Shown here: piece by piece, positions 8,343 through 45,869 of the stretch | Numbering within the stretch: the stretch's first letter is position 1 | Layout: the number at the start of each line of letters is the position of its first letter | Notes under the pieces: model-generated | Database searches by the model: none | What the model was told of the DNA's origin: nothing | The model's input: only the letters and a program-made list of their open reading frames with translations | Translations under genes and position numbers: made by a program | Assembly (NCBI GenBank): GCA_040289515.1 | Contig: PSLI01000002.1 | Span: forward strand, 20,014 to 84,013 | DNA length: 64,000 bases | Direction of reading: 5' to 3' | From: Candidatus Sysuimicrobiota bacterium | Lineage (GTDB): Bacteria > Sysuimicrobiota > Sysuimicrobiia > Sysuimicrobiales > Sysuimicrobiaceae

Positions 8343-8353
8343 GGAGGTGGACC

Positions 8354-11476: not shown

Positions 11477-11496
11477 AGGACGGCGAGGAGGGGACG

Positions 11497-32694: not shown

Positions 32695-32707
32695 ACTCGC
32701 TTCAGGA

Positions 32708-33202: not shown

Positions 33203-33209
33203 TGGCCGG

Positions 33210-34124
33210 ATGCGGGTCCTGTTCTTCGGCACGCCCCGCTTCGCGATCCCGTCCCTGGAGGCGGTAGCGCGCGCTCACCACGTGGTGGCGGTGGTCACGC
33301 AGCCGGACAGACTTTCCGGGCGCGGGCTTCGTCCGAGCCCGCCTCCCGTGGCGGCGCGCGCCCGGCAGCTGGGGCTCCCGGTCCTGCAGCCGGAGCGGCT
33401 CCGGGATGTGCGGGAACAGCTACAGGGCGCTTGCCCGGACGTGGGGGTGGTGGTGGCGTACGGCCGCGTCCTGCCCAGGTGGCTCGTTTCGCTTCCTCGT
33501 CTGGGGTGTGTGAACGTGCACCCCTCCCTGCTCCCACGATACCGGGGAGCCTCCCCCATTCAGGCCGCCATCCGGAACGGGGACGCCACCACGGGCGTCA
33601 CCGTGCTGCGGGTGTCCGAGGAGCTGGACGCGGGAGACGTGCTGGCCCAACAGGAGGTGGAGATCTCGCCGGAGGACACCGCGGGCAGCCTGGAGGCGAA
33701 GCTGGCGGAAGTGGGGGCATATCTTTTGGTGGAGGTCCTGGAGGCCCTGGAGCAGGGCCGGGTGCAGCCGCGCCCGCAGGACTCCACGCAGGCCACGTAC
33801 TGCGGCAAGCTGTCCAAGCAGGACGGCCTCATCCGATGGGACTGGCCCGCGGAGGTGGTGGAGCGGCACGTGCGGGCCATGGATCCGTGGCCCGTGGCGT
33901 ACACCGCGCACGGGGACAGGACGCTGAGGATCTGGCGGGTTAGAAAGACGGAGGGTTCGGGGCAGCCCGGCCAGGTACTGCGCCTGACCCCGCAGGGGTT
34001 CGTGGTGGCCACAGCAAAGGGGGCGGTGGAGGTGCTGGAAGTGCAGCCGCCCTCCGGGCGCCGCATGACAGCCGCGGAGTACGCCCGGGGCTACCGTCTG
34101 CAGCCGGGAGACCGGCTGGGCTGA
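33210..34124 (+). CDS. fmt: methionyl-tRNA formyltransferase
   Basis: N-terminus MRVLFFGTPRFA and HPSLLPRYRG motif. Confidence 0.9.
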   Translation: MRVLFFGTPRFAIPSLEAVARAHHVVAVVTQPDRLSGRGLRPSPPPVAARARQLGLPVLQPERLRDVREQLQGACPDVGVVVAYGRVLPRWLVSLPRLGCVNVHPSLLPRYRGASPIQAAIRNGDATTGVTVLRVSEELDAGDVLAQQEVEISPEDTAGSLEAKLAEVGAYLLVEVLEALEQGRVQPRPQDSTQATYCGKLSKQDGLIRWDWPAEVVERHVRAMDPWPVAYTAHGDRTLRIWRVRKTEGSGQPGQVLRLTPQGFVVATAKGAVEVLEVQPPSGRRMTAAEYARGYRLQPGDRLG

Positions 34125-34154
34125 TGGACAAAATGCGACCCGGTCCGTTACAAT
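34125..34154 (+). promoter_or_regulatory. promoter TGGACA-18-TACAAT upstream of the zinc metallopeptidase gene
   Basis: Sits in the fmt/peptidase intergenic region. Followed by RBS GGCAGGAGGTGA. Confidence 0.45.
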
Positions 34155-34172
34155 AGGGCAGGAGGTGAGCGG

Positions 34173-34865
34173 ATGCTGCTCTACGGGGGTCCGCTGTTCT
34201 GGCTGGCGCTTGTTGCCTTTGGCTTCGCCCTGTGGGCGCAGTTCAAGGTGATGAGCGCCTTCCAGCGGTACAGCCGCGTACCCGCGGGGGTGGGGCTGAC
34301 GGGTGCGGAGGTGGCGGCGCGGATCCTGCACGGGGCCGGCCTGTACGACGTACGGGTGGAGCCCGTGCGGGGACTGCTGTCGGACCACTACGACCCGCGG
34401 GCCCGGGTCCTTCGGCTTTCGCCCGAGGTGTACGGCACGCCCTCGGTGGCAGCGCTGGGTGTGGCGGCGCACGAGGTCGGGCACGCGCTGCAGCACCGGG
34501 AGAATTACGCACCCCTGGCCCTGCGGAACGCCATCGTTCCCGTGGCCGGCATCGGTTCGCAGCTTGGGATCTGGCTGTTTGTGGTGGGCATGCTCCTGGG
34601 CCGGTCCGGCGGGCTGCTCATGGATCTGGGGATCGTGCTGTTCCTGGGTGTGGTGGTTTTCACACTGGTCACCCTGCCGGTGGAGTTCGACGCCAGCCGG
34701 CGTGCGGTGGCGGCGCTGCAGGCCCACGGCCTGGTGACCCCTCGGGAGCTGGAAGGAGTGAAGGCGGTGCTGGGGGCCGCGGCCCTGACGTACGTGGCGG
34801 CCGCGGCAAGCGCCATCGTGGAACTCCTGCGTCTGCTGGCCATCCGCCATATGTCGCGGGAGTGA
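34173..34865 (+). CDS. membrane zinc metallopeptidase (YugP / PF04298 family)
   Basis: HEVGHAL zinc motif. TM segments flank the peptidase core. Confidence 0.8.
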   Translation: MLLYGGPLFWLALVAFGFALWAQFKVMSAFQRYSRVPAGVGLTGAEVAARILHGAGLYDVRVEPVRGLLSDHYDPRARVLRLSPEVYGTPSVAALGVAAHEVGHALQHRENYAPLALRNAIVPVAGIGSQLGIWLFVVGMLLGRSGGLLMDLGIVLFLGVVVFTLVTLPVEFDASRRAVAALQAHGLVTPRELEGVKAVLGAAALTYVAAAASAIVELLRLLAIRHMSRE

Positions 34866-36238
34866 CGGACAGGGCTTCCGCTGGTCGGGCCGGGCCGCGC
34901 ACCCGCGCGGCCCGGCGTGTCTTCGCAGACGTCCGTTCCGGAAGGGAGCTCGCCCTTCGGGTCCTCCAGCGGGTGGAGCTACAGGGCGCGTTCAGCAACG
35001 TGGCCCTGCAGGCGGCCCTCGCGAAGGCTTCCCTGCCCCCGGGTGAGCGGGAGCTGGCCACGGAGCTGGTCCTGGGTGTGTTGCGGTGGCGCAGCCGCCT
35101 GGACTGGACGCTGCAGGCCAAGTACGACCGCCCGCTGGCGGACCTGCCGGCTGCGGTGCGGCAGATCCTGCGCTTGGGGGCCTACCAGCTCCTGTTCCTG
35201 CACCGGGTGCCGGCTGCGGTGGCCGTGAGCTCCAGCGTGGAGCTGGCCAAGGAGTACGGACATGCGGGTACCGCCCGGCTGGTGAACGCCTTGTTGCGCC
35301 GGATCGGCCGGGAGGGGGAAGCGCCCCCGCCCGGGGCGGAGGACGAGCGACTGGCAACCGTCACCAGCCACCCGTTGTGGTTGGTACGGCGCTGGCTGGC
35401 CCGATGGCCGCAGGACGAGGTGCGGGCCCTGTGCCAAGCGAACAACGAGATGCCCTGGGCTCACGTGCGGGTCAACACCCTGAAGACCTCGGCCGCGGAC
35501 CTGGCCTCCCGGCTGCAGCAGGCAGGGCTGGAGGTCCGAAGGGGGTCGCTGCCGGAGTCCCTGTACGTCCGCGGCCCGCTGGAGGCCCGGCTCAATCTGG
35601 CGCAGGAAGGCCTGCTGGTGGCTCAGGACGAGGCGGCCATGGTGGTGGCTCACGCCGTGGACCCGCAGCCGGGCGACGTGGTGGTGGACGCCTGCGCGGC
35701 ACCCGGAGGGAAGGCCACGCACCTGGCCGCCCTGATGCGCGACCAGGGCCGGGTGGTGGCGTGCGACGTGCACCCGGGCAAAGTGGAAGTGCTGGCCCGG
35801 CGGGCTCGGCTCCTGGGTGCTACCTGCGTGGAAGCGCGGTGTTGCGACGCCCGGAACTTGGAGGTGCGGGACGCAGACCGGGTGCTGGTCGACGCCCCGT
35901 GTACGGGGCTGGGGGTGCTGCGGCGCCGCCTAGAGATCCGGTGGCGGGTGCAGCCGGGGCACCTGTCCCGGGCCGCGGAACTGCAACGGGCCATCCTGCA
36001 GAGCGCCAGCGAGGCGGTGCGGCCGGGCGGGGTGCTGGTCTACAGCGTGTGCTCCACGGAGCCCGAAGAGGGGGAGGCCGTCGTAGAATGGTTCCTGGCC
36101 TCCGGGTCGTTCGCCCCGGAGCCCTTCACGGTCCCGTGGCGGGAGGGGACCCTTCGGGCAGACGGCGGGATGCTCCGCCTGTGGCCCCACCACCACGGCA
36201 CCGACGGCTATTTCGTGGCGAGGATGCGCAGAAGATAA
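34862..36238 (+). CDS. rsmB: 16S rRNA (cytosine967-C5)-methyltransferase RsmB (Sun)
   Basis: NusB-like N-terminal domain. SAM motif DACAAPGGK. Catalytic motifs DAPCTG and SVCS. Confidence 0.85.
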   Translation: MTDRASAGRAGPRTRAARRVFADVRSGRELALRVLQRVELQGAFSNVALQAALAKASLPPGERELATELVLGVLRWRSRLDWTLQAKYDRPLADLPAAVRQILRLGAYQLLFLHRVPAAVAVSSSVELAKEYGHAGTARLVNALLRRIGREGEAPPPGAEDERLATVTSHPLWLVRRWLARWPQDEVRALCQANNEMPWAHVRVNTLKTSAADLASRLQQAGLEVRRGSLPESLYVRGPLEARLNLAQEGLLVAQDEAAMVVAHAVDPQPGDVVVDACAAPGGKATHLAALMRDQGRVVACDVHPGKVEVLARRARLLGATCVEARCCDARNLEVRDADRVLVDAPCTGLGVLRRRLEIRWRVQPGHLSRAAELQRAILQSASEAVRPGGVLVYSVCSTEPEEGEAVVEWFLASGSFAPEPFTVPWREGTLRADGGMLRLWPHHHGTDGYFVARMRRR

Positions 36239-37317
36239 TGGAGCATCCGGACCTTCGTTCCCAGTATGAGGAGGAGCTGCGCTCCTGGTTGGTAAGGCTT
36301 GGGGAGCCCCCCTACCGCGGCCGCCAGCTGGCCCGCTGGGTCCACGCGCACGGAGCGCGCAGCTTCGAGAGCATGACGGACTTACCGACCACCCTGCGGC
36401 GGCGCCTGGCGGAGGAGGCGCACCTCACCTGCCTGCAGGTGCTCCGCCGTACCACCTCCGCAGACAGGTCCACCACGAAGTACCTCCTGCGGTGCGGGGA
36501 CGGCAGCACCGTGGAGAGCGTGTGGATGCGGTACGCCGACGGCCGCCGCAGCGCGTGCGTCTCCACCCAGGTGGGCTGCGGCATGGGGTGCACCTTCTGC
36601 GCCACCGCCCTGGCGGGCTTGTACCGCAACCTCACCGCGGGCGAGATTACCGACCAGGTGCACGTCATGCAGCAGGACCAGGGGGAGCGGGTCACCCACG
36701 TGGTGTTCATGGGCATGGGAGAACCCCTGGCCAACCTGGATGCCACGGTGCGGGCGGTCCGACTGCTGAACGCCCCGTACGGGCTCCGGGTGGGGATCCG
36801 GCGCATCACGGTGTCCACCGTGGGCCTGGTCCCGCAGATCCGGCGCCTCGCGCAGATGAACCTGGGCTGCACCCTGGCCGTATCCCTCCACGCGCCGGAC
36901 GACGACTTGCGGACCCAGCTGGTGCCCGTCAACCGGCGCTACCCCCTCGCAGACCTTTTGGACGCCTGCCGGGAGTACGTGGCGCGCACGGGCCGGCGGG
37001 TGACCTTTGAGTACGTGTTCCTGGAGGGGCTGAACGACACGCCCGATCACGCGCGCCGCCTGGCACAGCGCCTGCGGGGCCTACGAAGCCACGTGAACCT
37101 GATCCCGTGGAACCCCGTGCCGTCCCTTCCATATCGGCGCCCCAGACCGGAGCACGTGCGAGAGTTCGCGCGCACCCTGCGGGAAGCCGGACTTCCCGTC
37201 ACGGTGCGGGTGGAGCGTGGCCTGGACATCCTCGCAGCCTGCGGGCAGCTGCGGGAGGCGCACAGGCCCGGAGGCGGGGTTGCGCGCAGCCTGCAGGCCG
37301 TGGCCGGGACGGTCTAG
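36238..37317 (+). CDS. rlmN: 23S rRNA (adenine2503-C2)-methyltransferase RlmN, radical SAM
   Basis: Radical SAM motif CVSTQVGCGMGCTFCAT and typical RlmN sequence. TAATG overlap with rsmB. Confidence 0.9.
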   Translation: MEHPDLRSQYEEELRSWLVRLGEPPYRGRQLARWVHAHGARSFESMTDLPTTLRRRLAEEAHLTCLQVLRRTTSADRSTTKYLLRCGDGSTVESVWMRYADGRRSACVSTQVGCGMGCTFCATALAGLYRNLTAGEITDQVHVMQQDQGERVTHVVFMGMGEPLANLDATVRAVRLLNAPYGLRVGIRRITVSTVGLVPQIRRLAQMNLGCTLAVSLHAPDDDLRTQLVPVNRRYPLADLLDACREYVARTGRRVTFEYVFLEGLNDTPDHARRLAQRLRGLRSHVNLIPWNPVPSLPYRRPRPEHVREFARTLREAGLPVTVRVERGLDILAACGQLREAHRPGGGVARSLQAVAGTV

Positions 37318-37331
37318 GCACAGGCGCCCTC

Positions 37332-37655
37332 GTGGAGGCCAAGACCCGCATCTTTCGCTTCCGGACCCCGCCGGTGCTGAGGGTGGTGGCGGGGCCGGGC
37401 CGCGGGACGGTGTGGGTGGTGCAGGGCACGCACACCGTGGGCCGCGGGCCCACCTGCGACCTGGTCCTGCCCGACCCAGCTGTGTCCAGGCAGCACGCGC
37501 TGGTGTGCTGGGGGCCGGACGGGACGGAGGTGGTGGATTTGGGGTCCACCAACGGCACGTACGTGAACGGGCGGCGCGTGGCTCGGTGCCGCCTGCAAGA
37601 CGGGGACCGTCTGCAGCTGGGGGAAGTCGTGTTGGAATATCGGGAGAGGCCGTGA
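37332..37655 (+). CDS. FHA-domain protein (small, cytosolic)
   Basis: FHA core reads GTHTVGRGPTCDLVLPDPAVSRQHALV...STNGTYVNGRRV. GTG start chosen. Confidence 0.7.
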   Translation: MEAKTRIFRFRTPPVLRVVAGPGRGTVWVVQGTHTVGRGPTCDLVLPDPAVSRQHALVCWGPDGTEVVDLGSTNGTYVNGRRVARCRLQDGDRLQLGEVVLEYRERP

Positions 37656-38086
37656 GCGAGGTCCTGCAGGCGCTGAGGTATGCCGTCCTGGCGGGCCTGT
37701 TCGTGTTTCTGTACCGTGTGGTGCGGGCTGTGGGGGACGACCTCGGGCAAGCGGCCTCCGGTGGGCCGTGGGCCGTACTGGTGGTGGAGGAGGGGCCCGG
37801 GCTGAGCCCTGGCGAGGTGTTCGCTGTGCGGGGCGAAGTCGTGGTGGGCCGCGCGTCCACCTGCGACGTGGTGGTCCCGGATCCGGGGGCGGGTGCCCGT
37901 CACGCACGGCTGGTGACGGAAGGGGAGGGGTTCTGGCTGGAAGACCTGGGAAGTCCCGGGGGCACGTACCTGAACGGACGCAAGCTGGAGGCCCCCGCTC
38001 CGCTGCGCCAGGGAGACCGCATGCGGGTGGCCTCCACGGTGCTGCGGTTCGTGCAGCCGCACAACACCTGGACAAAAGGGAGCTGA
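37652..38086 (+). CDS. FHA-domain protein with N-terminal transmembrane segment (FhaB/FipA-like)
   Basis: TM segment LRYAVLAGLFVFLYRVV, then FHA (GRASTCDVVVPDPGAGARHARL...SPGGTYLNGRKL). GTGA overlap with the preceding FHA gene. Confidence 0.7.
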   Translation: MSEVLQALRYAVLAGLFVFLYRVVRAVGDDLGQAASGGPWAVLVVEEGPGLSPGEVFAVRGEVVVGRASTCDVVVPDPGAGARHARLVTEGEGFWLEDLGSPGGTYLNGRKLEAPAPLRQGDRMRVASTVLRFVQPHNTWTKGS

Positions 38087-38093
38087 AGGACCC

Positions 38094-39251
38094 GTGCTCA
38101 GGCGTGCGGATCTGCACGGGCTTGTGCTGGCGGTGGGGTTGGGAGGGGTGGCGCTGGTGCACTGGGCCAGGAACCCGCAGGAGCCGCCGGTGGTCCTCGT
38201 GTATGCGGCCGCGGTGCTGTTCAGTTTCTTTGTGGTGGACGTCGTCCTACGCCCGAAGGAAACCCTCCTACTGCCGCTGACCGGACTGCTGGTGGCGGTA
38301 GGACTTGCGAACCTGTACCGGTTACGCCCGCAGCTGGTGGCCGAGCAGGCGGCATGGATGTGCGTGGGGCTGGCCCTGGGGGTGGCCGCCTCGCGGAGTG
38401 CCCGCACGGTGAGGGAGTTTGCGCGGGTACCGGCACTTGCAACTTTGCTCGTAGCGGCCTCCGTCGTTTTATGGGGTGGGTCACAGGTGGGGGCGTACCC
38501 GGTCGCAAAAGACATCCCCTCCCAGCTGGCCAAGCTGCTCGCGGTGCTCGTGGGTGCGGCAGAACTGCACCGGGGTTCCCTGCGGGGACCCGTGATGGCC
38601 GCGTGGGCGGCTGGGGTGGCGCTGGTTCTCCTGGGGGGGGACGTGAGTACCGCTTCGTTGCTGGTGTGGGTGGGTATCGTTGTAGCGTACTGCGCGGGCG
38701 CATCCTGGTCGACCCTCGTGCCCGCATTCGGCGGGTTCCTCTTGCTGGCGAGCTTGGCCCACGCGGGTCTGCCGCAGCTGACGGAGCGGGTCAAGGGGTG
38801 GGTCAACCCGTGGGGTGACCCCCTGGGTTTTGGCTACCCGCTGGTGCAGAGCCTGTTCGCCATGGGATCGGGGGGGCTGGTGGGCGCCGGTCCGGGCTTT
38901 GGCTACCCGGAGCTCGTGCCGCAGGGCCACACCACCTTCGCCCTGGCCGCGCTAGCTGAGGAGTGGGGGTTCGTGGGGGTCCTCGCGCTGCTCTCGGGCT
39001 ACGCGATGTGGGTGGGCAGGGCCCTGCGGTGGGCCGTGCTGGCACCATCCCGCTACGCCCGGTTGCTGGCAGCTGGCGCTGTGGCCCTGGTGGGCGGGGA
39101 GGCGTTCCTGGCTGGTGCGGCAGCCACCGGCCTGCTTCCCGCCACGGGCGCGGGCCTGCCGTTTGTGAGCTACGGGCCGGCTTCCGTGGTGGTGCACCTG
39201 GTGGTGCTGGGGCTATTGCTGGCCGCCCCGGGGTTGCAGGAGGCGCGGTGA
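38094..39251 (+). CDS. SEDS family peptidoglycan polymerase (RodA/FtsW)
   Basis: Polytopic membrane protein with SEDS motifs NPWGDPLGFGYPLVQS and GLPFVSYG. Confidence 0.85.
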   Translation: MLRRADLHGLVLAVGLGGVALVHWARNPQEPPVVLVYAAAVLFSFFVVDVVLRPKETLLLPLTGLLVAVGLANLYRLRPQLVAEQAAWMCVGLALGVAASRSARTVREFARVPALATLLVAASVVLWGGSQVGAYPVAKDIPSQLAKLLAVLVGAAELHRGSLRGPVMAAWAAGVALVLLGGDVSTASLLVWVGIVVAYCAGASWSTLVPAFGGFLLLASLAHAGLPQLTERVKGWVNPWGDPLGFGYPLVQSLFAMGSGGLVGAGPGFGYPELVPQGHTTFALAALAEEWGFVGVLALLSGYAMWVGRALRWAVLAPSRYARLLAAGAVALVGGEAFLAGAAATGLLPATGAGLPFVSYGPASVVVHLVVLGLLLAAPGLQEAR

Positions 39252-40564
39252 CCAGACGCGTTCGGATCCTTTTGGGGATCCACCTGGGGCTTGTGGTGTT
39301 GCTAGTCAGCTGGGTGGCCTACTGGCAGGTGGTGCGGGGTCCTGAGCTGGCCGTTCACCCCGGCAATCCCCGCTTGCTGCTCGCGGAAGAGCGCATCCAG
39401 CGGGGCAGGGTCCTGGACCGAAAGGCGCGCGTGCTGGCCTACAGCGTCCGCCGGGACGGGCGAACCCTGCGGGTCTACCCCGGCGGCGAGGTTTTCAGCC
39501 ACCCGGTAGGCTACCGCAGCTTGCTGCTGGGGAAGGCCGGGCTGGAGGCCACCTGGGACGCGGAGTTGTTGGGAGTGTTTGAGCGGAGGGCGTGGGAGCA
39601 GCTGCGCAGGCGGGGGGGTCGGCCTCCCGTTGGGCTAGATGTGGTGACCACCCTGGACGCGGAGCTGCAGCGGGCCAGCTGGGAAGCGTTGGGACCTCGG
39701 CCGGGTGCTGTCGTGGTGGTGGAGTTGCGTACTGGGCAGGTACTGGCCTCCGTCAGCCGCCCGGGATTCGACCCGAACCGTCTGGAGCAGAGGTGGGCCG
39801 AGCTGCGGTGGGCCCCGGGCTCCCCCCTGGTGGACCGTGCCAGCAGCAAGGTGTACCCCCCGGGGCGGACCTTTGGCATCGTGGTGCTGAGCGCGGCCCT
39901 GAGCCGGGGGCTGGTGGGCCTGGACAGCCCTGTCGGCTGCGGCAACGCCGCCGCGGTCCCTGCCCACCTGGTACGGGAGGTGCTCACCGCGGGGTGCACC
40001 CAGGGCTTGGTGCGGCTTGGTGAGGCCCTGGGCGGCAGGATCCTGCGGGAGATGGCGGAGGCCTTCGGGCTGGGCCAGCCACCAACCGGGGACGTGCCGG
40101 CAGCTGCGGGCCAGTTGCCAGAGGTCGGTGACCAGCTCCGCGACGATCTGACCCACGTGGTGGCGGGGGGAGGCCGGGTCTTGGCCTCGCCCCTGCAGAT
40201 GGCCGCCGTGGCGGCTACCCTGGGACGCGGGGGCGAAAGGGTGGAATTGCGCTTCGTCCAGCGCGTGCAGCACGCGGAGGGCCGGGCCCTGGAACGAACT
40301 TTTCAGCGGGCCCCGGTGCGCATCCTGGCAGTTGAGGTGGCTCAGGCGGTGGTGGAAGCCATGAGGGCTTCGGGTGGGGGATTACTCGCAGGGGTCCGGG
40401 GCACGGTGCGCGTGGGGCCTGCGCCCGTGGGGTGGTTCGTGGCGCTGACTCCGACAGATCTGCCGCGACTTGCCCTGGCGGTGGTGGTGGAGGGCGCCGG
40501 CGAGGAGGTGGCGTGGGCGGTGGCCGGGAAGGTCGCGCAGGCAACCCTGCGGGTGGTACCGTAG
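39248..40564 (+). CDS. PbpA-like class B penicillin-binding-protein homolog with degenerate catalytic motifs (predicted non-catalytic)
   Basis: Strong PbpA-like context DRASSKVYPPGRTFGIVVLSAALS. The SxxK position reads RTFG, SxN reads GCT, and KTG reads VRG. GTGA overlap with the SEDS gene. Confidence 0.8.
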   Translation: MTRRVRILLGIHLGLVVLLVSWVAYWQVVRGPELAVHPGNPRLLLAEERIQRGRVLDRKARVLAYSVRRDGRTLRVYPGGEVFSHPVGYRSLLLGKAGLEATWDAELLGVFERRAWEQLRRRGGRPPVGLDVVTTLDAELQRASWEALGPRPGAVVVVELRTGQVLASVSRPGFDPNRLEQRWAELRWAPGSPLVDRASSKVYPPGRTFGIVVLSAALSRGLVGLDSPVGCGNAAAVPAHLVREVLTAGCTQGLVRLGEALGGRILREMAEAFGLGQPPTGDVPAAAGQLPEVGDQLRDDLTHVVAGGGRVLASPLQMAAVAATLGRGGERVELRFVQRVQHAEGRALERTFQRAPVRILAVEVAQAVVEAMRASGGGLLAGVRGTVRVGPAPVGWFVALTPTDLPRLALAVVVEGAGEEVAWAVAGKVAQATLRVVP

Positions 40565-40587
40565 GCGCAGCGAAGGGAGGCCTGCGC

Positions 40588-42498
40588 GTGACGCTGGCGG
40601 GGTCGGTGCTGGCGGGACGCTACGAGCTGTTGGAGCCTGTCGGCCAGGGCGGAATGGCCACCGTGTACCGCGCCCGCCGCCTGCCGGACGGGAAGGTGGT
40701 GGCGGTCAAGGTTCTGCGGGAGCCATACAGCCACGACCGGGAGTTCGTGGAGCGGTTTCAGCGAGAGGCGGAGGCGGCCGCGTCCTTGGACCACCCGCAC
40801 GTGGTGGCGGTCCTGGACAGCGGGGAGCAGGCCGGCGTGCGCTTCCTCGTGATGGAGTACGTGGAGGGGGAGGATCTGAAGTCCCTTCTGCGGCGGTCCG
40901 GGCCCCTGTCGCCCGAGAAGGCCGCCCCCATCGCTGCCGCGGTGTGCGACGCCCTCCAGTATGCCCACGCCCGCGGGATCGTGCACCGCGACGTCAAGCC
41001 GCAGAACATCCTGCTCACGCCCACGGGGAGCGTGAAGGTGGCGGACTTCGGCATCGCCCGCGCCCTGAGCTCCGCCACCATCACGGAGACGGGGACCGTT
41101 TTGGGTTCGGTGCACTACCTGTCGCCCGAGCAGGCGCGCGGAGAGGCCGCCACCGCCGCCTCTGACCTGTACGCCCTGGGTGTGGTGCTGTACGAGATGC
41201 TCACGGGCCGTCTGCCCTTCGACGGGGAGAGCCCCATCGCGGTGGTGCTGAAGCACCTGTACGAGGAGCCCCCTTCTGTGCGGGAGGTGAACCCGGCGGT
41301 GCCCGCGTGGCTGGAGGGGGTGGTGCGGCGGGCCATGGCGAAGCGTCCGGAGGACCGGTATCCTTCCGCGGCGCACATGCGCGCGGACCTGCAGGGCCAG
41401 GCCGACCACTGGCGCCAGGGTCGCACGGTAGTTTTGGGAGGGCCTCCGCAGCGCCGCGTCCGGCGGAGGGGGCCTTCCGCGGCAGCCGTGGCGGCGGCGG
41501 TGCTGGTGGGGCTCGCTGCAGCCATGGCGGCGGGCTGGCAAGCCCTGCAGGTGTACGTGAACGTGGGAGAGGTAACATTACCCGACCTGCGGGGCCGCAG
41601 TTTCACCGAGGCGCAGGCGGTGGTCGCGGACCTGCGGCTGCACCTGGTGGTGGCAGGGCGACAGTACCACGACCGCTACCCTGCCGGCACGGTGGTGGAC
41701 CAAGATCCTCCTCCCGGACGCAGGGTGCGGGAAGGCCGCTGGGTGTCGGTGGTGCTGAGCCAGGGGACCGAGCGGGTGGTGGTTCCCGACGTGACCCGCA
41801 AGCTGCTGCCGGAGGCCACGTTGCTGCTGGAGCAGAGCCGGCTACGGGTGGGCTCCGTGCGGGAGGACTTCGACGACCAGGTGCCCCGCGGCACGGTGGT
41901 GATGCAGCAGCCGGCCCCGGGGTCGGAGGTAACCCGGGGTGCCGCGGTCGACCTGGTGGTGAGCAAGGGGCCGGAGCTCGTGACGGTTCCGCAGCTGGTT
42001 GGTCTCACTCTGGAACAGGCCCGCGCGGAGCTACACCGGTTGGGTCTCAGCCTGGAGCAGGTGGGCTACGTGGCGCGCGCGGATGTACCTCCGGACGTGG
42101 TGGTGGAACAAGCCCCTCCCGCGGGTTCCCGGGTCCGCCGCACACAGCGGCTCGGGGTCGTGGTGGCCGTCCGCCTACGGGAGGAAGCAACCCCGCGCCC
42201 CTTGATCTCCCCGCCCGCGCAGCCTGCCCCGTCGCCTGCTCACACCTCCCCCCGCGTACAGACCACCACGGAGCCGGTGAGCGGGTCGGTCCGCAGGGTC
42301 CGGCTGGAGGTCACCCTGCCGCCGGGGGACGAGGAGGAGGAAGTACGCGTGGTGGTGATCGACAACCGGGGCGTGCGGGTGGTGTACCGGCAGGTGCACC
42401 CGCCGGGCGACCGGGTGGTGCAAACGGTGGAGGTGGAGGGCTACGCCATCGTGCAGGTGTACTTCGGAACCCGTCTCGTCCAGGAGGTGCGACCGTGA
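40588..42498 (+). CDS. PASTA-domain Ser/Thr protein kinase (PknB/PrkC-like) with extra C-terminal beta-rich domain
   Basis: Kinase motifs VAVK, HRDVKPQN, DFG and SPEQ. TM segment, then three PASTA repeats, then a ~100 aa C-terminal domain. RBS GAAGGGAGG. Confidence 0.9.
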   Translation: MTLAGSVLAGRYELLEPVGQGGMATVYRARRLPDGKVVAVKVLREPYSHDREFVERFQREAEAAASLDHPHVVAVLDSGEQAGVRFLVMEYVEGEDLKSLLRRSGPLSPEKAAPIAAAVCDALQYAHARGIVHRDVKPQNILLTPTGSVKVADFGIARALSSATITETGTVLGSVHYLSPEQARGEAATAASDLYALGVVLYEMLTGRLPFDGESPIAVVLKHLYEEPPSVREVNPAVPAWLEGVVRRAMAKRPEDRYPSAAHMRADLQGQADHWRQGRTVVLGGPPQRRVRRRGPSAAAVAAAVLVGLAAAMAAGWQALQVYVNVGEVTLPDLRGRSFTEAQAVVADLRLHLVVAGRQYHDRYPAGTVVDQDPPPGRRVREGRWVSVVLSQGTERVVVPDVTRKLLPEATLLLEQSRLRVGSVREDFDDQVPRGTVVMQQPAPGSEVTRGAAVDLVVSKGPELVTVPQLVGLTLEQARAELHRLGLSLEQVGYVARADVPPDVVVEQAPPAGSRVRRTQRLGVVVAVRLREEATPRPLISPPAQPAPSPAHTSPRVQTTTEPVSGSVRRVRLEVTLPPGDEEEEVRVVVIDNRGVRVVYRQVHPPGDRVVQTVEVEGYAIVQVYFGTRLVQEVRP

Positions 42499-43169
42499 TC
42501 CGCCTGGCACCGTCTGTGCTATCCGCTGACTTCGCGCATCTGGCCGACCAGGTGGCGGAGGCGGAGGAAGGGGGCGCAGACTGGATCCACGTGGATGTCA
42601 TGGATGGGCGCTTCGTGCCCAACCTCACCGTGGGCCCGTTGGTGGTGGAGGCCATCCGCCGCTGCACCAGGCTGCCCCTGGACGTGCACCTCATGGTGCA
42701 GGACCCCGACCTCCTGCTGCAGGCATTCCGGGCCGCGGGAGCGGACCGTCTGTCGGTACACGTGGAAGTGTGTCCTCACCTCCACCGTACCCTGTCCCGC
42801 ATCCGGGAACTGGGTGCCGCCCCCGGCGTGGCCCTCAATCCCCACACGCCACCCGAAGCGGTGGAATGGGTGCTGGATGAGGTGGACACGGTGGTGGTGA
42901 TGACGGTCGACCCCGGGTTCGGTGGCCAGGAGTTCCTGCCCGGCATGCTGCGCAAGGTGCAGCAACTGGCCCGCCGCAAGAAGGAGCGGCACCTGCACTT
43001 CGAGCTGGAGGTGGATGGGGGGGTGGACGTGGATACGGGCATGCAGGCCGCGCAGGCGGGGGCCACGGTCCTGGTCGCCGGGCACTTCGTGTACCGCAAC
43101 CCCAAGGGGGTGGCCGCGGCCCTCCACGCTCTGCGGCAGGCCGTTTCTTTCGGGCTTGCGCGCACGTGA
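42495..43169 (+). CDS. rpe: ribulose-phosphate 3-epimerase
   Basis: Typical Rpe sequence (SVLSADF, HVDVMDGRFVPN, DPGFGGQ). GTGA overlap with the kinase gene. Confidence 0.9.
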   Translation: MIRLAPSVLSADFAHLADQVAEAEEGGADWIHVDVMDGRFVPNLTVGPLVVEAIRRCTRLPLDVHLMVQDPDLLLQAFRAAGADRLSVHVEVCPHLHRTLSRIRELGAAPGVALNPHTPPEAVEWVLDEVDTVVVMTVDPGFGGQEFLPGMLRKVQQLARRKKERHLHFELEVDGGVDVDTGMQAAQAGATVLVAGHFVYRNPKGVAAALHALRQAVSFGLART

Positions 43170-44206
43170 GCATCCTGCTCCTGTACCACCGGGACTGCCT
43201 CCTGCACGCCCCGCCGCGGCCGCACCCCGAGAAGCCCGAGCGGCTGCAGGCGGTACGGGAGGCGTTGGAGCGGGCGGAGCTGTGGGACCAGCTCCCCCAC
43301 GAGGAGCCGGCTCCCACCCCGTGGGAGCTGCTGGAGCTGGTGCATCCCCGCAGCTACCTGGACCAGGTGCGCCGCGCCAGCCGGGCGCCGGGGGTGTGGC
43401 TGGACCCCGACACCTACGCGGCGGAGGGGACCTGGCAAGCGGTGGTGGCCGCCACCGGAGCCGCGGTGCGGGCCGTGGAGGCGGTGGTGCGGGGTCCTCA
43501 CACCAGCGCGTTCGCCCTCGTGCGGCCGCCCGGCCACCACGCGGGGCCTAGTCGGGCCATGGGGTTCTGCCTGGTGAACCACATCGCGGTGGCAGCCCAT
43601 TACGCCCGGGAGCACCTGCACATCGAAAGAACCATGGTGGTGGACTGGGATGTGCACCACGGCAACGGCACGCAGGAGGTGTTCTACCGCGATGGGGGCG
43701 TGCTGTTCGTCTCCCTACACCAGGAGGGCTGGTACCCTGGCACCGGTGCGGTGGAGGAGACGGGTGCGGGCGAGGGGGAGGGGCTGACGGTGAACGTACC
43801 CCTGCCCCCGGGCGTGGGGGACGAAGGGTACCGGTCCGTGTTCGAGGAGGTTGTCCTGCCCCTGGGGGACGCGTGGAAGCCGGAGCTGGTGCTGGTTTCC
43901 GCAGGTTTCGACGCGCACCACTCCGACCCCCTGGGCCGCATGGCACTCACCCCGGCCGGGTTCGCCCGTTTGGCGGGTATGCTCCGGGAGGCCGTTCGCA
44001 GGTGGTGCGGCGGCCGTCTGGCGCTGGTCCTGGAAGGGGGCTATGACCTCCGCGCTCTGTCCCGGTGCGTGGAGGCCACCGTGAGGGTGCTCGCTGACCT
44101 GGAGGCCCCAGCTGCGGAGGGCCCCGTCTCCGAGATCCCGTATGGGGTGGTGCGGGAACGGATCCGGGTGGTCCGGCGCGTGCTGTCGCAGTACTGGTCC
44201 GTGTAG
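43166..44206 (+). CDS. histone deacetylase superfamily protein (AcuC / acetoin-utilisation-type deacetylase)
   Basis: RPPGHHA, DWDVHHGNGTQ and EGGY motifs are present. Confidence 0.85.
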   Translation: MSILLLYHRDCLLHAPPRPHPEKPERLQAVREALERAELWDQLPHEEPAPTPWELLELVHPRSYLDQVRRASRAPGVWLDPDTYAAEGTWQAVVAATGAAVRAVEAVVRGPHTSAFALVRPPGHHAGPSRAMGFCLVNHIAVAAHYAREHLHIERTMVVDWDVHHGNGTQEVFYRDGGVLFVSLHQEGWYPGTGAVEETGAGEGEGLTVNVPLPPGVGDEGYRSVFEEVVLPLGDAWKPELVLVSAGFDAHHSDPLGRMALTPAGFARLAGMLREAVRRWCGGRLALVLEGGYDLRALSRCVEATVRVLADLEAPAAEGPVSEIPYGVVRERIRVVRRVLSQYWSV

Positions 44207-44327
44207 GTTCGCCCGGAAGGCTGGTCCGCAGAACCTGGTCGCCTTGCCCAACTCGCCCCCGGCGGGTATAATGGCGAGCACCCGGGGCGGAAACGCCCTT
44301 TTTTCGCGTGTCGGCGCAGGAGGCGCT

Positions 44328-45548
44328 ATGTCCGAGGAGACTCGCACCCCCTCCGAAGAGGTCAGCATGGAGAGCGCCTTCCCCGAGCTGCAGGAACGGC
44401 AGATCGTGCGGGGTACCGTGGTACGGGTGGACAGCGAGGGCGTGCTGGTGGACGTGGGGGCCAAGTCCGAGGGGCTTATTCCCGTGCGCGAGTTCCGGCC
44501 CGGCGAGTCCCCCACCGACCTGCGGGTGGGCGACCAGATCGACGTGTACGTGATGCGGGTGGAGCAGGAGGAGGGCAACATCCTGCTCAGCAAGCGCCGG
44601 GCGGATGTGCAGCGGGCGTGGGAACGGCTGGAGACGGCCCTCCGGGACGGCCAGATCCTGCACGCCATGGTGGTAGACCGTGTGAAGGGCGGGGTGGTGG
44701 TGGATGTGGGACTGCGGGGCTTTGTGCCCGGCTCCCACATCGACCTCACGCGGGTGAAGGGCCGCAGGTTCGAGAACCTGGTGGGCGAGAGCGTGCCCTT
44801 GAAGGTCATCGAGATCGACCGCGAACGCAACCGCGTGATTCTTTCCCACAAGCAGGCGGTGGAGGAGGAACGAGCCCGGCGCCGGGAGGAGCTGTTCCGG
44901 ACCCTGCGGGAGGGCGACGAGGTGGAGGGGGTGGTGCGGCGGATCACGGACTTCGGGGCCTTCGTGGACCTAGGCGGGGTGGACGCCCTGCTGCCCATCA
45001 GCGAGATGGCGTGGACGTACATCAAGCATCCCTCCGAGGCGGTGCGGCGAGGTCAGACCCTGCGCCTGCGGGTAATCCGGGTGGACCCCTCCGCGGGCAA
45101 GATCAGTTTGAGCCTCAAGCAGGTGCTGCCGGATCCCTGGGTGGACATCCGGTCCCGCTACCGCGAAGGGGACGTGGTACGGGGCAAGGTGGTGCGGCTG
45201 GCGACTTCCGGGGCCTTCGTGCGTCTGAAGGACGTGGACGCCTTTTTGCCGCTGAGCGAGCTGGCGGAGCGGCGGGGCCAGAAGGTGGAGGAGCTGGTGC
45301 AGGTGGGCGCTACGGTGGAGGCCGTGGTGGTGGAGATCAAACCGGAGGATCGCCGCATGGTGGTGAGCGTGCGGCGGTTGCGGGAGCAGCGGGAGCGGGA
45401 AGAGCTGAGCCGGCACCAACAGTCCCAGGAGCGCGGGGGGGTCACCATCGGCGCGGTGGCGGGGGACGTGCTGCGGCAGGCGGTGCAGGGCACAAACCCA
45501 CAGGCGCCCGAGGAACCGTCCGAGCCGAACGACCGACAGGGCCAGTAG
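44328..45548 (+). CDS. rpsA: 30S ribosomal protein S1 (short four-S1-domain form)
   Basis: Four S1 repeats. RBS GGAGG. Confidence 0.9.
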   Translation: MSEETRTPSEEVSMESAFPELQERQIVRGTVVRVDSEGVLVDVGAKSEGLIPVREFRPGESPTDLRVGDQIDVYVMRVEQEEGNILLSKRRADVQRAWERLETALRDGQILHAMVVDRVKGGVVVDVGLRGFVPGSHIDLTRVKGRRFENLVGESVPLKVIEIDRERNRVILSHKQAVEEERARRREELFRTLREGDEVEGVVRRITDFGAFVDLGGVDALLPISEMAWTYIKHPSEAVRRGQTLRLRVIRVDPSAGKISLSLKQVLPDPWVDIRSRYREGDVVRGKVVRLATSGAFVRLKDVDAFLPLSELAERRGQKVEELVQVGATVEAVVVEIKPEDRRMVVSVRRLREQREREELSRHQQSQERGGVTIGAVAGDVLRQAVQGTNPQAPEEPSEPNDRQGQ

Positions 45549-45862: not shown

Positions 45863-45869
45863 AAGCTGG

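What the first reader, a model, noticed from the sequence alone, without database searches (positions are those of the whole stretch)
39248..40564. Full-length PbpA-like penicillin-binding-protein homolog with all three catalytic motifs substituted (predicted pseudo-enzyme)
The protein has unmistakable class B transpeptidase context around the active site: DRASSKVYPPGRTFGIVVLSAALS, versus the PbpA-type D-R-A-v-a-e-t-YPPGSTFK-vit-t-AAAL. Serine and lysine of SxxK are replaced (RTFG). The SxN region reads GCT (AGCTQGLVRLG) and KTG reads VRG (AGVRGTV versus AGKTGTA). The ORF is intact at 438 aa and translationally coupled to the SEDS polymerase gene by a GTGA overlap. This does not look like decay. 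It looks like a maintained non-catalytic PBP that could scaffold the SEDS protein or sense or present peptidoglycan to the adjacent PASTA kinase.
Basis: partly seen in the sequence, partly recalled or inferred. Interest (0 to 1): 0.75.

Follow-up and report, generated by a model that had tools for sequence, protein, structure and literature searches.

The report
Doubly inactive SEDS–PbpA cell-wall pair
In an uncultivated hot-spring lineage (Candidatus Sysuimicrobiota), two partner proteins that normally build and cross-link the bacterial cell wall have both lost their catalytic residues yet stay conserved next to a wall-sensing kinase, so they probably now do a non-enzymatic job.

Summary
ORF 39248-40564 encodes a full-length PbpA-type class B PBP. 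Profile, sequence and structure-based comparisons place RTFG, GCT and VRG exactly on SxxK, SxN and KTG.

- **Not an error or decay.** All 18 sequence clusters of a monophyletic Sysuimicrobiota (CSP1-3/GAL15) clade lack the three motifs. The syntenic sister clade has them intact. dN/dS is 0.21-0.27, against 0.16 for the catalytic orthologues.
- **The upstream SEDS "polymerase" is degenerate too.** The invariant catalytic Asp is Thr here (Gly, Ser, Ala or Pro in relatives). The equivalents of E. coli FtsW W138, Q147 and G381, shown experimentally to be essential, are also lost. The gene is nonetheless under purifying selection (dN/dS 0.23-0.31).
- **Conservation has moved to the contact surfaces.** The PBP pedestal and SEDS ECL4/TM8 are best kept, while both active-site regions have drifted.
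- **A second, independent case exists.** A much larger family of motif-less PbpA proteins occurs in Anaerolineae, paired or fused with intact SEDS.

Most likely the pair is a catalytically dead SEDS-bPBP complex kept as a structural or regulatory part of the FHA/PASTA-kinase wall-growth module. Its actual role is inferred, not shown.

The parts
37332..37655 (+). Short FHA-domain protein (FhaA position, about 107 aa). It lacks the FhaA_N domain that sister-clade orthologues carry.
   Evidence: The FHA match is and the start-codon scan. Sister loci encode a 242-243 aa FhaA with PF12401. Dead-clade loci encode 108-117 aa.
37652..38086 (+). FhaB/FipA-like protein with an N-terminal hydrophobic segment and a C-terminal FHA domain. 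Its GTG start overlaps the stop of the preceding gene.
   Evidence: NF049868 FhaB_Rv0019c, 1.3e-22, which is below the curated cut-off. PF00498 is found, the hydrophobic segment at residues 2-28, and the start codon.
38094..39251 (+). SEDS (RodA/FtsW) homologue, 385 aa, predicted non-catalytic.
   Evidence: PF01098 at 3.8e-45, but below the NCBIfam rodA and ftsW equivalog cut-offs. AF2 pLDDT is 90.2, and the only significant PDB fold matches are RodA and FtsW. Catalytic-residue substitutions are shown. dN/dS is 0.23-0.31.
38514..38534 (+). SEDS ECL2 segment I141-K147 (IPSQLAK), replacing the canonical FQPSExxK. The preceding 'GARxW' tryptophan is absent.
   Evidence: Seen in the alignment with T. 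thermophilus RodA, with 47 intact SEDS proteins and with E. coli FtsW. Q147 maps to Ile, E150 to Gln and W138 to a gap. ECL2 identity within the dead clade is 31%, against 75% in the sister clade.
38934..38936 (+). Codon for Thr281 of the SEDS protein, the position of the invariant catalytic Asp (T. thermophilus RodA D255, E. coli FtsW D297).
   Evidence: HTDF aligns to HTTF. The column is Asp in 47 of 47 outgroup SEDS proteins and Thr, Gly or Ala in 7 of 7 clade members. The mapping onto E. coli FtsW is.
39248..40564 (+). PbpA-type class B PBP homologue, 438 aa, with a TM anchor, pedestal and transpeptidase fold but all catalytic motifs replaced. This is the finding.
39866..39877 (+). Residues 207-210, RTFG in place of SxxK.
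   Evidence: In the dead clade the Ser column reads R12/A4/T2 and the Lys column G13/R4/Q1. Both are invariant (24/24) in intact relatives.
39992..40000 (+). Residues 249-251, GCT in place of SxN. The central Cys250 is invariant in the clade, as is Cys231.
40394..40402 (+). Residues 383-385, VRG in place of KTG.
40588..42498 (+). PASTA Ser/Thr kinase (PknB/Stk1 type), 636 aa, with all kinase motifs present, one TM segment and three PASTA domains.
   Evidence: NF033483 scores 572 bits, above the cut-off of 450. Pfam finds Pkinase plus three PASTA domains. VAVK, HRDVKPQN and DFG are visible, and the TM segment is.

Best explanation
**What the two genes are.** The ORF encodes a PbpA-type class B penicillin-binding-protein homologue that keeps its membrane anchor, pedestal and transpeptidase fold but has lost every catalytic residue. 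The SEDS gene translationally coupled to it (38094-39251) has also lost its catalytic aspartate and other essential active-site residues. Both are the positional orthologues of an ordinary, catalytically intact RodA-PbpA pair in the cluster FhaA-FhaB-(PP2C)-RodA-PbpA-PASTA kinase.

**When it happened.** The losses occurred once, in the ancestor of one Sysuimicrobiota clade. Both genes have stayed under purifying selection since.

**What is shown.**
- Both active sites are lost.
- The loss is a single ancient event.
- Selection still acts on both genes.
- Conservation has shifted to the surfaces that mediate SEDS-bPBP contact in solved complexes.

**What is inferred.**
- The two proteins still form a membrane complex.
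- That complex neither polymerises nor cross-links peptidoglycan.
- It serves as a non-enzymatic structural or regulatory component of the wall-growth module run by the adjacent PASTA kinase and FHA proteins.
- It may still bind lipid II, as laboratory FtsW mutants at the same positions do.
For: **PBP motifs.**
- They are replaced at positions fixed by the profile, by the Mtb PbpA alignment and by the model.
- These are exactly the columns that are invariant in 24 of 24 intact relatives.

**Distribution.**
- All 18 clusters of the clade are degenerate, while P0019-P0042 are intact.
- The dead clade is monophyletic in 100 of 100 NJ bootstraps. Dead clade plus sister group together in 94 of 100.
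- Synteny from def to S1 is identical in the dead loci (window, L001-5, L007, L017, L023) and the intact sister loci (L015, L021, L022).

**SEDS residues.**
- T. thermophilus RodA D255 aligns to Thr.
- That column is Asp in 47 of 47 outgroup proteins and Thr, Gly or Ala in 7 of 7 clade members.
- On E. coli FtsW numbering the window protein lacks W138 and has Q147I, G199S, D297T and G381P. Every subclade-1 orthologue carries three to five such changes.
- W138A, Q147E, G199A, D297A, Y379A, G380A and G381D do not complement, yet those mutants still bind FtsI and lipid II (PMC8765783).
- Mutating the invariant Asp abolishes polymerase activity, whereas inactivating the bPBP transpeptidase site does not (bioRxiv 10.1101/358663).

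**Selection (bootstrapped NG86, unsaturated pairs).**
- PBP: 0.27 [0.18-0.37] and 0.21 [0.14-0.31].
- SEDS: 0.23 [0.16-0.33] and 0.31 [0.23-0.44].
- Intact sister pair: 0.16 (PBP) and 0.20 (SEDS).
- Neighbouring genes: 0.03-0.24.

**Where constraint sits.**
- PBP pedestal 69% identity versus transpeptidase domain 55% in the dead clade. In the sister clade it is 64% versus 68%.
- SEDS ECL2 31% and ECL5 57% in the dead clade, against 75% and 79% in the sister clade.
- ECL4 (65%) and TM8 (71%) are the best-kept parts of the dead SEDS.
- ECL4-pedestal contact is the known activation interface (PMC8765783, introduction).

**Folds.** Both are confidently predicted, and the SEDS model matches only RodA and FtsW.
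Against: - No biochemical data exist, so 'inactive' is inferred from residue identity.
- Subclade 2 (L017, Bacterium HR32) keeps the catalytic Asp, Q147 and SYGG. It has lost only the W138, E150 and K153 equivalents, so its SEDS may be less certainly dead.
- dN/dS is somewhat higher than for neighbouring genes, and SEDS is the fastest-evolving gene of the block at 42-56% identity. Constraint is real but relaxed.
- Complex formation is inferred from conservation patterns and 4-nt overlaps, not modelled or measured.
- The link to the kinase is by gene order only.
- I could not inventory the rest of these genomes. It is therefore unknown which enzymes build the wall, or whether a second intact RodA-PbpA pair exists.
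Confidence: 0.6

Rival explanations
1. Only the PBP is dead. The SEDS protein still polymerises glycan strands using a modified active site. The dead PBP acts purely as its allosteric activator, and cross-linking is left to other enzymes. This is the situation inferred for Anaerolineae.
For: - Transpeptidase-inactive bPBPs still activate SEDS polymerase in vitro (bioRxiv 10.1101/358663).
- In Anaerolineae a motif-less PbpA is paired or fused with a fully canonical SEDS.
- The SEDS fold is retained here.
- Subclade 2 keeps the Asp.
Against: - The window SEDS lacks the invariant Asp and the equivalents of W138, Q147 and G381. Each is individually non-complementing in E. coli FtsW (PMC8765783).
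- The replacing residues differ between orthologues (Thr, Gly, Ser, Ala, Pro), so no new catalytic residue is fixed.
- The active-site loop ECL2 has drifted to 31% identity.
Confidence: 0.12
2. The pair acts as a built-in brake, decoy or lipid II receptor. It binds lipid II and/or divisome and elongasome partners without turning over substrate. It would damp wall synthesis or report precursor levels to the PASTA kinase and FHA proteins. This is a more specific version of the best explanation.
For: - FtsW mutants at the same positions are dominant-negative while still binding lipid II and FtsI (PMC8765783).
- The operon is conserved with an intact PASTA kinase and two FHA proteins.
- In Actinobacteria this locus is a phospho-regulated wall module, and PbpA is a kinase and phosphatase substrate (PMC6554272).
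Against: - Nothing tested here bears directly on lipid II binding or on kinase interaction.
- ECL2, part of the putative substrate cavity, is poorly conserved, which argues against a precise ligand site.
- No conserved cytoplasmic Thr is evident at the PBP N-terminus.
Confidence: 0.2
3. The genes are on their way to being lost. They are relaxed remnants of an elongation system the lineage no longer uses and have no present function.
For: - Both genes evolve faster than all neighbours.
- Their GC3 is slightly lower.
- The locus has also lost the FhaA N-terminal domain.
- Long ORFs survive easily by chance at 71% G+C.
Against: - dN/dS is 0.21-0.31 with upper bootstrap limits of 0.44 or less, close to the catalytic orthologues.
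- Full-length alignable proteins of 433-445 aa occur in all 18 clusters across roughly 50% sequence divergence.
- 93 invariant columns remain in the PBP.
- Conserved 4-nt overlaps are kept.
Confidence: 0.05
4. The proteins have been neofunctionalised into enzymes with a different chemistry, using new catalytic residues in the old folds.
For: - Arg at the former Ser position is kept in 12 of 18 clade members, and Gly at the Lys position in 13 of 18.
- Ten clade-specific conserved residues exist.
Against: - The former active-site positions vary between subclades: R/A/T, G/R/Q, G/D/P/A and others.
- The clade-specific residues are mostly hydrophobic or structural (V, P, W, L, F) and scattered.
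- No new conserved nucleophile or acid appears in either protein.
Confidence: 0.03

Closest known systems
M. tuberculosis and actinobacterial RodA (Rv0017c) - PbpA (Rv0016c) in the fhaA-fhaB-pstP-rodA-pbpA-pknA-pknB locus
   Same: - Best sequence and fold match is Mtb PbpA (3UN7 at 4.9e-41, TM 0.80).
- Same two-domain PbpA architecture (PF21922 plus PF00905).
- Same gene order: FHA, FHA, SEDS, PbpA, PASTA kinase. Linkage of pstP, rodA, pbpA and the PASTA kinase is conserved across Actinobacteria (PMC6554272).
   Different: - All three transpeptidase motifs and the SEDS catalytic residues are replaced.
- There is no PP2C phosphatase gene in the locus.
- FhaA lacks its N-terminal domain.
- There is a single kinase.
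- The cluster is embedded in a def-fmt-rsmB-rlmN ... rpe context.
Laboratory catalytic mutants: E. coli FtsW W138A, Q147E, D297A and G381D, and transpeptidase-inactive bPBPs
   Same: - The substitutions fall on the same residues.
- Such FtsW mutants still localise and still bind FtsI and lipid II (PMC8765783).
- Transpeptidase-dead bPBPs still bind and activate SEDS (bioRxiv 10.1101/358663).
- Catalytically inactive bPBPs can still support division when another bPBP is present (PMC12516126, citing Sassine 2017 and Shrestha 2025).
   Different: Here the changes are natural, affect both partners at once, are fixed in a whole lineage and are kept by selection.
Motif-less PbpA-like family of Anaerolineae (Chloroflexota), found here
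   Same: - PbpA architecture with all three motifs lost: T/AxxQ, ACP and HxG in 104 of 120 top hits.
- Adjacent or fused to a SEDS gene, with FhaA and FhaB upstream.
   Different: - Independent origin.
- Its SEDS is fully canonical, with W, FQPSExxK, H[ST]DF and SYGG.
- No adjacent PASTA kinase.
- I found no paper describing it.
Degenerate LytM (dLytM) factors such as EnvC, NlpD and DipM (from general knowledge, not tested here)
   Same: Cell-wall enzyme homologues that lost their catalytic residues and work as regulators or activators of other wall enzymes.
   Different: Unrelated fold. They are hydrolase regulators, single proteins rather than a dead enzyme pair, and their targets are known.
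PBP-fold sensors BlaR1/MecR1 and PbpP
   Same: A penicillin-binding fold used for signalling rather than synthesis (PMC8092216, title and abstract).
   Different: Those sensors keep the active-site serine and signal through acylation. The protein here has no nucleophile.

Membership tests
Class B PBP, PbpA subtype (D,D-transpeptidase) | Transpeptidase (penicillin-binding) fold, PF00905 | tested here: met
   PF00905 at 5.9e-25, covering profile positions 1-296 of 299. The AF2 model matches Mtb PbpA at TM 0.80.
Class B PBP, PbpA subtype (D,D-transpeptidase) | N-terminal membrane anchor plus PbpA-type pedestal or dimerisation domain | tested here: met
   Hydrophobic segment at residues 7-25. PF21922 at 9e-09, above its cut-off.
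Class B PBP, PbpA subtype (D,D-transpeptidase) | SxxK motif with nucleophilic Ser and general-base Lys | tested here: not met
   RTFG aligns to STFK. Ser and Lys are invariant in 24 of 24 intact relatives.
Class B PBP, PbpA subtype (D,D-transpeptidase) | SxN motif | tested here: not met
   GCT aligns to SCN.
Class B PBP, PbpA subtype (D,D-transpeptidase) | KTG motif | tested here: not met
   VRG aligns to KTG.
Class B PBP, PbpA subtype (D,D-transpeptidase) | Covalent binding of beta-lactams and transpeptidase activity | not testable with these tools
   Needs a Bocillin-FL or activity assay.
SEDS peptidoglycan glycosyltransferase (RodA/FtsW), upstream gene | FtsW/RodA/SpoVE fold with ten TM helices | tested here: met
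   PF01098 at 3.8e-45. AF2 pLDDT is 90.2 and the only significant PDB matches are FtsW and RodA. The protein scores below the NCBIfam rodA and ftsW equivalog cut-offs.
SEDS peptidoglycan glycosyltransferase (RodA/FtsW), upstream gene | Invariant catalytic Asp in ECL4 (TtRodA D255, EcFtsW D297) | tested here: not met
   Thr281 here. The column is Asp in 47 of 47 outgroup proteins and non-Asp in 7 of 7 members of the aligned clade set. Subclade 2 (L017) keeps Asp.
SEDS peptidoglycan glycosyltransferase (RodA/FtsW), upstream gene | Other residues essential for polymerisation (EcFtsW W138, Q147, G199, Y379, G380, G381) | tested here: not met
   In the window protein W138 is absent and the changes are Q147I, G199S and G381P. 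Essentiality comes from PMC8765783.
SEDS peptidoglycan glycosyltransferase (RodA/FtsW), upstream gene | Cognate bPBP partner encoded alongside | tested here: met
   4-nt GTGA overlap with the PBP gene. The same overlap occurs in orthologues.
SEDS peptidoglycan glycosyltransferase (RodA/FtsW), upstream gene | Lipid II polymerase activity | not testable with these tools
   Needs an in vitro lipid II assay.
Actinobacterial-type FHA/PP2C/RodA/PbpA/PASTA-kinase wall-regulation locus | Linked FhaA, FhaB, SEDS, PbpA and PASTA kinase genes in this order | tested here: met
   The sister clade shows the complete version.
Actinobacterial-type FHA/PP2C/RodA/PbpA/PASTA-kinase wall-regulation locus | PP2C phosphatase (PstP) in the locus | tested here: not met
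   tblastn with the L015 PP2C finds nothing in the window or in any dead-clade locus. PP2C is also absent from the intact sister loci L021 and L022, so it is not tied to the catalytic loss.
Actinobacterial-type FHA/PP2C/RodA/PbpA/PASTA-kinase wall-regulation locus | Active PASTA Ser/Thr kinase | tested here: met
   NF033483 scores 572 bits, above the 450 cut-off. VAVK, HRD and DFG are present.
Actinobacterial-type FHA/PP2C/RodA/PbpA/PASTA-kinase wall-regulation locus | Phosphorylation of PbpA or RodA by the kinase and recognition by FHA proteins | not testable with these tools
   Known for mycobacteria (PMC6554272). No data exist for this lineage.

The most novel reading that the evidence does not exclude
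An entire SEDS-bPBP synthase has been converted, by loss of both active sites, into a non-catalytic membrane device. It would still bind lipid II and/or wall-synthesis partners and would work with the adjacent PASTA kinase and FHA proteins. It could act as a precursor sensor or as a built-in dominant-negative brake on wall growth. Together with the independent Anaerolineae family (dead bPBP with a live SEDS), this would show that the non-enzymatic roles of these proteins are enough for natural selection to keep them.
Probability: 0.25. Interest if true: 0.85.

Novelty: new variant of a known kind. Interest (0 to 1): 0.7.

Why it matters
SEDS-bPBP pairs are the core machines of bacterial wall growth and major antibiotic targets.

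- **The open question.** Laboratory work shows that bPBPs activate SEDS polymerases independently of their own catalysis, and that dead FtsW still binds lipid II and its partner. Whether these non-catalytic activities matter on their own in nature has been an open question.
- **What this adds.** There are two natural experiments. One is a lineage where both partners are dead but conserved. The other is a large Anaerolineae family where only the bPBP is dead, sometimes fused to a live SEDS.
- **What they allow.** They give ready-made, evolution-vetted separation-of-function variants with intact orthologues for comparison.
- **Annotation.** The proteins are currently named 'peptidoglycan glycosyltransferase', 'penicillin-binding transpeptidase' or 'FtsW/RodA/SpoVE family' in the source annotations.
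- **Interpretation.** They bear on how wall synthesis and beta-lactam susceptibility are read in uncultivated phyla.

Tried and rejected
1. **Other PG synthases in the same genome.**
   - The rest of the window holds housekeeping genes only: men, suf, IleRS, Lgt, RqcH, def, fmt, thi and others. There is no dcw cluster and no second PBP or SEDS.
   - Extending beyond the window failed. One edge protein sits only on a 3.6-kb Logan contig, and the other is not on record.
   - Supplementary tables of the Sysuimicrobiota paper hold no ftsI, mrdA, rodA, ftsW or mreB entries.
   - Neither phylum paper discusses the wall.
   - The sister clade's FtsI fragment had no close relative among the proteins fetched.
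2. **The Asp/Glu racemase at 22039-22779 as evidence for D-Glu and peptidoglycan synthesis.** It is an aspartate/cysteate-racemase type, not MurI. Dropped.
3. **Loss of the PP2C phosphatase as coupled to the catalytic loss.** Rejected, because the intact sister loci L021 and L022 also lack it.
4. **Glu to Gln at the TtRodA E108 position as inactivating.** Downgraded, because E150A is tolerated in E. coli FtsW (PMC8765783).
5. **Primary papers on RodA D255 (PMC6035859) and B. subtilis RodA W105/D280 (PMC5161649).** Neither is held. Residue essentiality is therefore cited from PMC8765783 and bioRxiv 10.1101/358663.
6. **Literature searches for naturally inactive bPBPs or SEDS.** They returned nothing relevant. 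The 2025 survey of morphogenetic synthases covers domain architectures, not active-site integrity.
7. **Sequencing or assembly error.** Excluded by 18 independent clusters from NCBI, ENA, JGI and Logan assemblies.


Full report
**1. The observation.**
- Window 39248-40564 (+) is an uninterrupted 438-codon frame starting at GTG. Its start overlaps the TGA of the upstream ORF (GTGA, 39248-39251), and a GGAGG lies just upstream.
- Pfam finds a full-length Transpeptidase domain (PF00905, 5.9e-25, profile 1-296 of 299) and the PbpA dimerisation or pedestal domain (PF21922, 9e-09).
- The closest solved protein is M. tuberculosis PbpA (3UN7, 4.9e-41). HMMER's alignment places YPPGRTFG on YPPGSTFK, GCT on SCN, and VRG-T on KTG-T. 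No alternative triad is placed elsewhere.
- An AlphaFold2 model (pLDDT 89.4, pTM 0.87) superposes best on Mtb PbpA (TM 0.80).
- In an alignment with 24 intact relatives, the columns invariant in all 24 but replaced here are S207, K210, S249, N251 and K383. Q308 (23 of 24) and H394/A395 (22 of 24), near the active site, are nearly invariant and also replaced.

**2. Who carries it.**
- The identical protein and the identical upstream protein are annotated in MAGs named 'candidate division GAL15 bacterium'. That taxon is now Candidatus Sysuimicrobiota, also called CSP1-3. It is an uncultivated phylum with thermophilic hot-spring members (PMC11604079).
- Of the 42 best homologues, P0001-P0018 (50-65% identical, 433-445 aa, from NCBI, ENA, JGI and Logan assemblies) all lack the three motifs. 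P0019-P0042 all have STFK/S-x-N/KTG.
- A bootstrapped NJ tree makes the 18 degenerate sequences monophyletic (100 of 100). Their sister is the intact group P0019-P0027 (94 of 100).
- In species-representative genomes the degenerate gene occurs in at least six species, including Ca. Tepidifontimicrobium thermophilum and Bacterium HR32.

**3. Orthology.**
- Dead-clade loci (window, L001-L005, L007, L017, L023) and intact sister loci (L015, L021, L022) share the same order: priA-def-fmt-Zn peptidase-rsmB-rlmN-FHA-FHA-SEDS-PBP-PASTA kinase-(rpe)-HDAC-like-S1. L021 and L022 lack rpe at this position.
- The window pair is therefore the positional orthologue of an ordinary catalytic RodA-PbpA pair, not a spare paralogue.
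- The arrangement is the actinobacterial fhaA-fhaB-pstP-rodA-pbpA-pknB module (PMC6554272).
- It sits inside a def-fmt-rsmB-rlmN...rpe context. From general knowledge, that is the context of prpC-prkC in Bacillus.
- One sister locus has the PP2C phosphatase (L015). The others and all dead-clade loci do not, so that loss is not coupled to the catalytic loss.
- The dead clade does have a shortened FhaA (about 107-117 aa, no PF12401 domain), against 242-243 aa in the sister clade.

**4. The partner is degenerate too.**
- The upstream 385-aa protein is a SEDS homologue (PF01098, 3.8e-45). It falls below the NCBIfam RodA and FtsW cut-offs.
- Aligned to T. thermophilus RodA, the catalytic D255 (HTDF; 6BAS is the D255A mutant) corresponds to Thr (HTTF). 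FQPlELAK corresponds to IPSQLAK, and the upstream 'aW' tryptophan has no counterpart.
- In an alignment with 47 other SEDS proteins, the Asp column is Asp in 47 of 47 and Thr, Gly or Ala in the 7 clade members.
- I mapped the proteins onto E. coli FtsW (sequence taken from NC_000913.3) and compared them with the mutational study PMC8765783. In that study W138A, Q147E, P196T, G199A, Y242H, R243L, D297A, G371S, Y379A, G380A and G381D fail to complement, while E150A, H295A and T296A are tolerated.
- The window protein lacks W138 and has Q147I, G199S, D297T and G381P. L001, L002, L003, L004 and L023 each carry three to five such changes, with different replacing residues.
- The sister-clade proteins are canonical at every position the paper reports as highly conserved across SEDS proteins. 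At P196, Y242 and R243 they read R, H and V, so those three FtsW positions are not informative for this lineage.
- Subclade 2 (L017, HR32) is intermediate. It has lost the equivalents of W138, E150 and K153 but keeps Q147, D297 and SYGG.
- Independent biochemistry shows that mutating the invariant Asp abolishes FtsW polymerase activity, whereas inactivating the bPBP transpeptidase site does not (bioRxiv 10.1101/358663).
- The SEDS fold itself is confidently predicted (pLDDT 90.2) and matches only FtsW and RodA structures.

**5. Selection.**
- For closely related, unsaturated pairs (dS 0.23-0.39) I computed Nei-Gojobori dN/dS with codon bootstraps.
- Dead clade, L001-L002: PBP 0.27 [0.18-0.37], SEDS 0.23 [0.16-0.33].
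- Dead clade, L003-L023: PBP 0.21 [0.14-0.31], SEDS 0.31 [0.23-0.44].
- Intact sister pair, L021-L022: PBP 0.16 [0.11-0.22], SEDS 0.20 [0.13-0.30].
- Neighbouring genes span 0.03-0.24.
- Both genes are therefore clearly under purifying selection, only modestly relaxed.
- At deeper divergence they are the fastest-evolving genes of the block: SEDS 42-56% and PBP 54-65% identity, against PknB 66-77%.

**6. Where constraint sits.**
- In the dead clade the PBP pedestal is more conserved (69%) than the transpeptidase domain (55%). In the sister clade and the outgroup the order is reversed (64 versus 68%, and 37 versus 46%).
- In the dead SEDS, the active-site loops ECL2 and ECL5 have drifted to 31% and 57%, against 75% and 79% in the sister clade. 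ECL4 (65%) and TM8 (71%) are the best-kept parts.
- ECL4-pedestal contact is the known activation interface of RodA-PBP2 (PMC8765783, introduction). Packing of the bPBP TM helix against TM8 and TM9 is from my knowledge of the 6PL5 complex.
- Two cysteines (C231, and C250 in the middle of the former SxN) are invariant in the clade. They lie at or next to the two cysteines of Mtb PbpA in the alignment, which suggests the extracytoplasmic domain is still kept folded.
- The 4-nt overlap between the two genes is conserved.
- I infer, but have not shown, that the two proteins still form a complex.

**7. A second, independent case.**
- A profile of the dead clade searched against 1.84 billion cluster representatives collapsed the whole clade into one representative. 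It then hit ordinary PbpA proteins, several SEDS-PbpA fusions, and 15 further representatives with all three motifs gone.
- Searching with one of these (P0236) showed a large family labelled Anaerolineae. In it, 104 of the best 120 proteins read T/AxxQ, ACP and HxG instead of SxxK, SxN and KTG.
- Their loci read FhaA-FhaB-SDR-PNP-SEDS-PBP with no kinase.
- There, and in the natural fusions P0233 and P0243, the SEDS part is fully canonical.
- The tree separates this group from the Sysuimicrobiota clade.
- A naturally transpeptidase-dead PbpA is therefore not unique to this window. In Anaerolineae it fits the established 'bPBP as allosteric activator' role. The combination of dead bPBP and dead SEDS was seen only in the Sysuimicrobiota clade.

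**8. Mechanism.**
- Shown: both active sites are gone, the loss is ancient and single, both genes are selected, both folds are retained, and the interface regions are preferentially conserved.
- Inferred, and the most likely reading (about 0.6): a non-catalytic SEDS-bPBP membrane complex kept as a structural or regulatory component of the wall-growth module defined by the FHA proteins and the intact PASTA kinase. The kinase scores 572 bits against the Stk1/PknB equivalog and has VAVK, HRD, DFG and three PASTA domains.
- E. coli FtsW mutants at the same residues still bind lipid II and FtsI and are dominant-negative (PMC8765783). A more specific and more novel reading follows: the pair is a lipid II-binding sensor or brake. 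That reading is untested, and the poor conservation of ECL2 speaks somewhat against a precise ligand site.
- Rivals, with my estimates: a still-active SEDS with a dead activator PBP (0.12), decay without function (0.05), new chemistry (0.03), and artefact (about 0).

**9. Limits.**
- I could not determine which enzymes build the wall in these organisms.
- The window holds no other synthase, and attempts to reach further genome sequence or published inventories failed.
- The sister clade has a dcw cluster with an FtsI-type bPBP 6 kb downstream. In the dead clade that position holds thi genes instead.
- NG86 estimates in a genome with 84-90% GC3 are approximate, so the neighbouring genes serve as the internal control.
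- Open reading frames persist easily at 71% G+C, so ORF intactness alone was not used as evidence.

**10. Verdict.**
- Its picture of a dead PBP scaffolding a live SEDS polymerase is wrong for this locus, because the SEDS is dead as well.
- I found no description of either natural case in the searchable literature.
- I class it as a new variant of a known kind: pseudoenzyme derivatives of cell-wall synthases. It is of real interest to the SEDS/bPBP field.

Noticed in passing
Loci L019 7001-8392 and L020 7001-8407; proteins P0236 and P0350-P0468: A large Anaerolineae (Chloroflexota) family of PbpA-like proteins lacks all three catalytic motifs (T/AxxQ, ACP, HxG; 104 of the 120 best hits). They sit next to a canonical SEDS gene and downstream of FhaA-FhaB-SDR-PNP. 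The origin is independent of the window's clade, and I found no paper describing it.
   Followed up: partly
Proteins P0201, P0203, P0209, P0213, P0226, P0230, P0233, P0243 and others: Natural single-chain SEDS-PbpA fusions of about 870-910 aa are common among the closest relatives. Most have both active sites intact. P0233 and P0243 combine an intact SEDS half with a motif-less PBP half. Fusions as such are reported in PMC12516126, but their active-site state is not.
   Followed up: partly
Window 37332-37655, compared with L015 4486-5217, L021 5571-6302 and L022 5574-6302: The first FHA protein of the operon is only about 107-117 aa in the dead clade and lacks the FhaA_N domain (PF12401) found in the 242-243 aa sister-clade orthologues. 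The locus was therefore remodelled in more than the two enzymes.
   Followed up: partly
L015 5718-6728, compared with the window, L001-5, L017, L021 and L022: A PP2C phosphatase gene lies between FhaB and SEDS in one sister-clade genome only. It is absent from the locus in the other sister genomes and in all dead-clade genomes. The PASTA kinase therefore has no phosphatase encoded alongside it.
   Followed up: yes
Window 32597-45548: The gene order def-fmt-Zn peptidase-rsmB-rlmN-[FHA-FHA-SEDS-PBP]-PASTA kinase-rpe is a hybrid. It combines the Bacillus-type fmt-rsmB-rlmN-prpC-prkC-...-rpe neighbourhood (from general knowledge) with the actinobacterial fha-rodA-pbpA-pknB module.
   Followed up: no
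L021 15131-17401 and L022 15126-17401: In the sister clade a dcw cluster (mraZ-rsmH-ftsL-like-ftsI, with a PF03717-type bPBP) begins about 6 kb downstream of the module. In the window and in L017 the corresponding position holds thiO-thiS-thiG-thiE instead.
   Followed up: no
Window 45867-45969 (+): A TPP riboswitch (RF00059, 69.4 bits) lies directly upstream of the thiO-like DAO gene (46027-47178) and the thiG and thiE genes.
   Followed up: no
Window 50168-50527 (+); 15661-15822 (+); 45582-45659 (+): RNase P RNA class A (296.7 bits), adjacent tRNA-Leu(CAA) and tRNA-Val(TAC) genes, and tRNA-Pro(CGG).
   Followed up: no
Window 42100-42498, C-terminal ~100 residues of the kinase: After the third PASTA domain the kinase carries a Pro/Ser/Thr-rich linker and a ~70-residue beta-rich tail (…VRRVRLEVTLPPGDEEEEVRVVVIDNRGVRVVYRQVHPPGD…) with no Pfam match.
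   Followed up: no
Window 565-6894 and 7494-12729: A menaquinone gene set (chorismate-binding MenF-like, MenB-like enoyl-CoA hydratase, UbiA/MenA prenyltransferase, MenE-like AMP ligase) is followed by a suf Fe-S cluster operon (SufC, SufB, SufD, SufS).
   Followed up: no
Window 22039-22779 (+): The Asp/Glu racemase family protein scores best against the cysteate-racemase (CuyB) and aspartate-racemase models, not glutamate racemase MurI. It says nothing about peptidoglycan precursor synthesis.
   Followed up: yes
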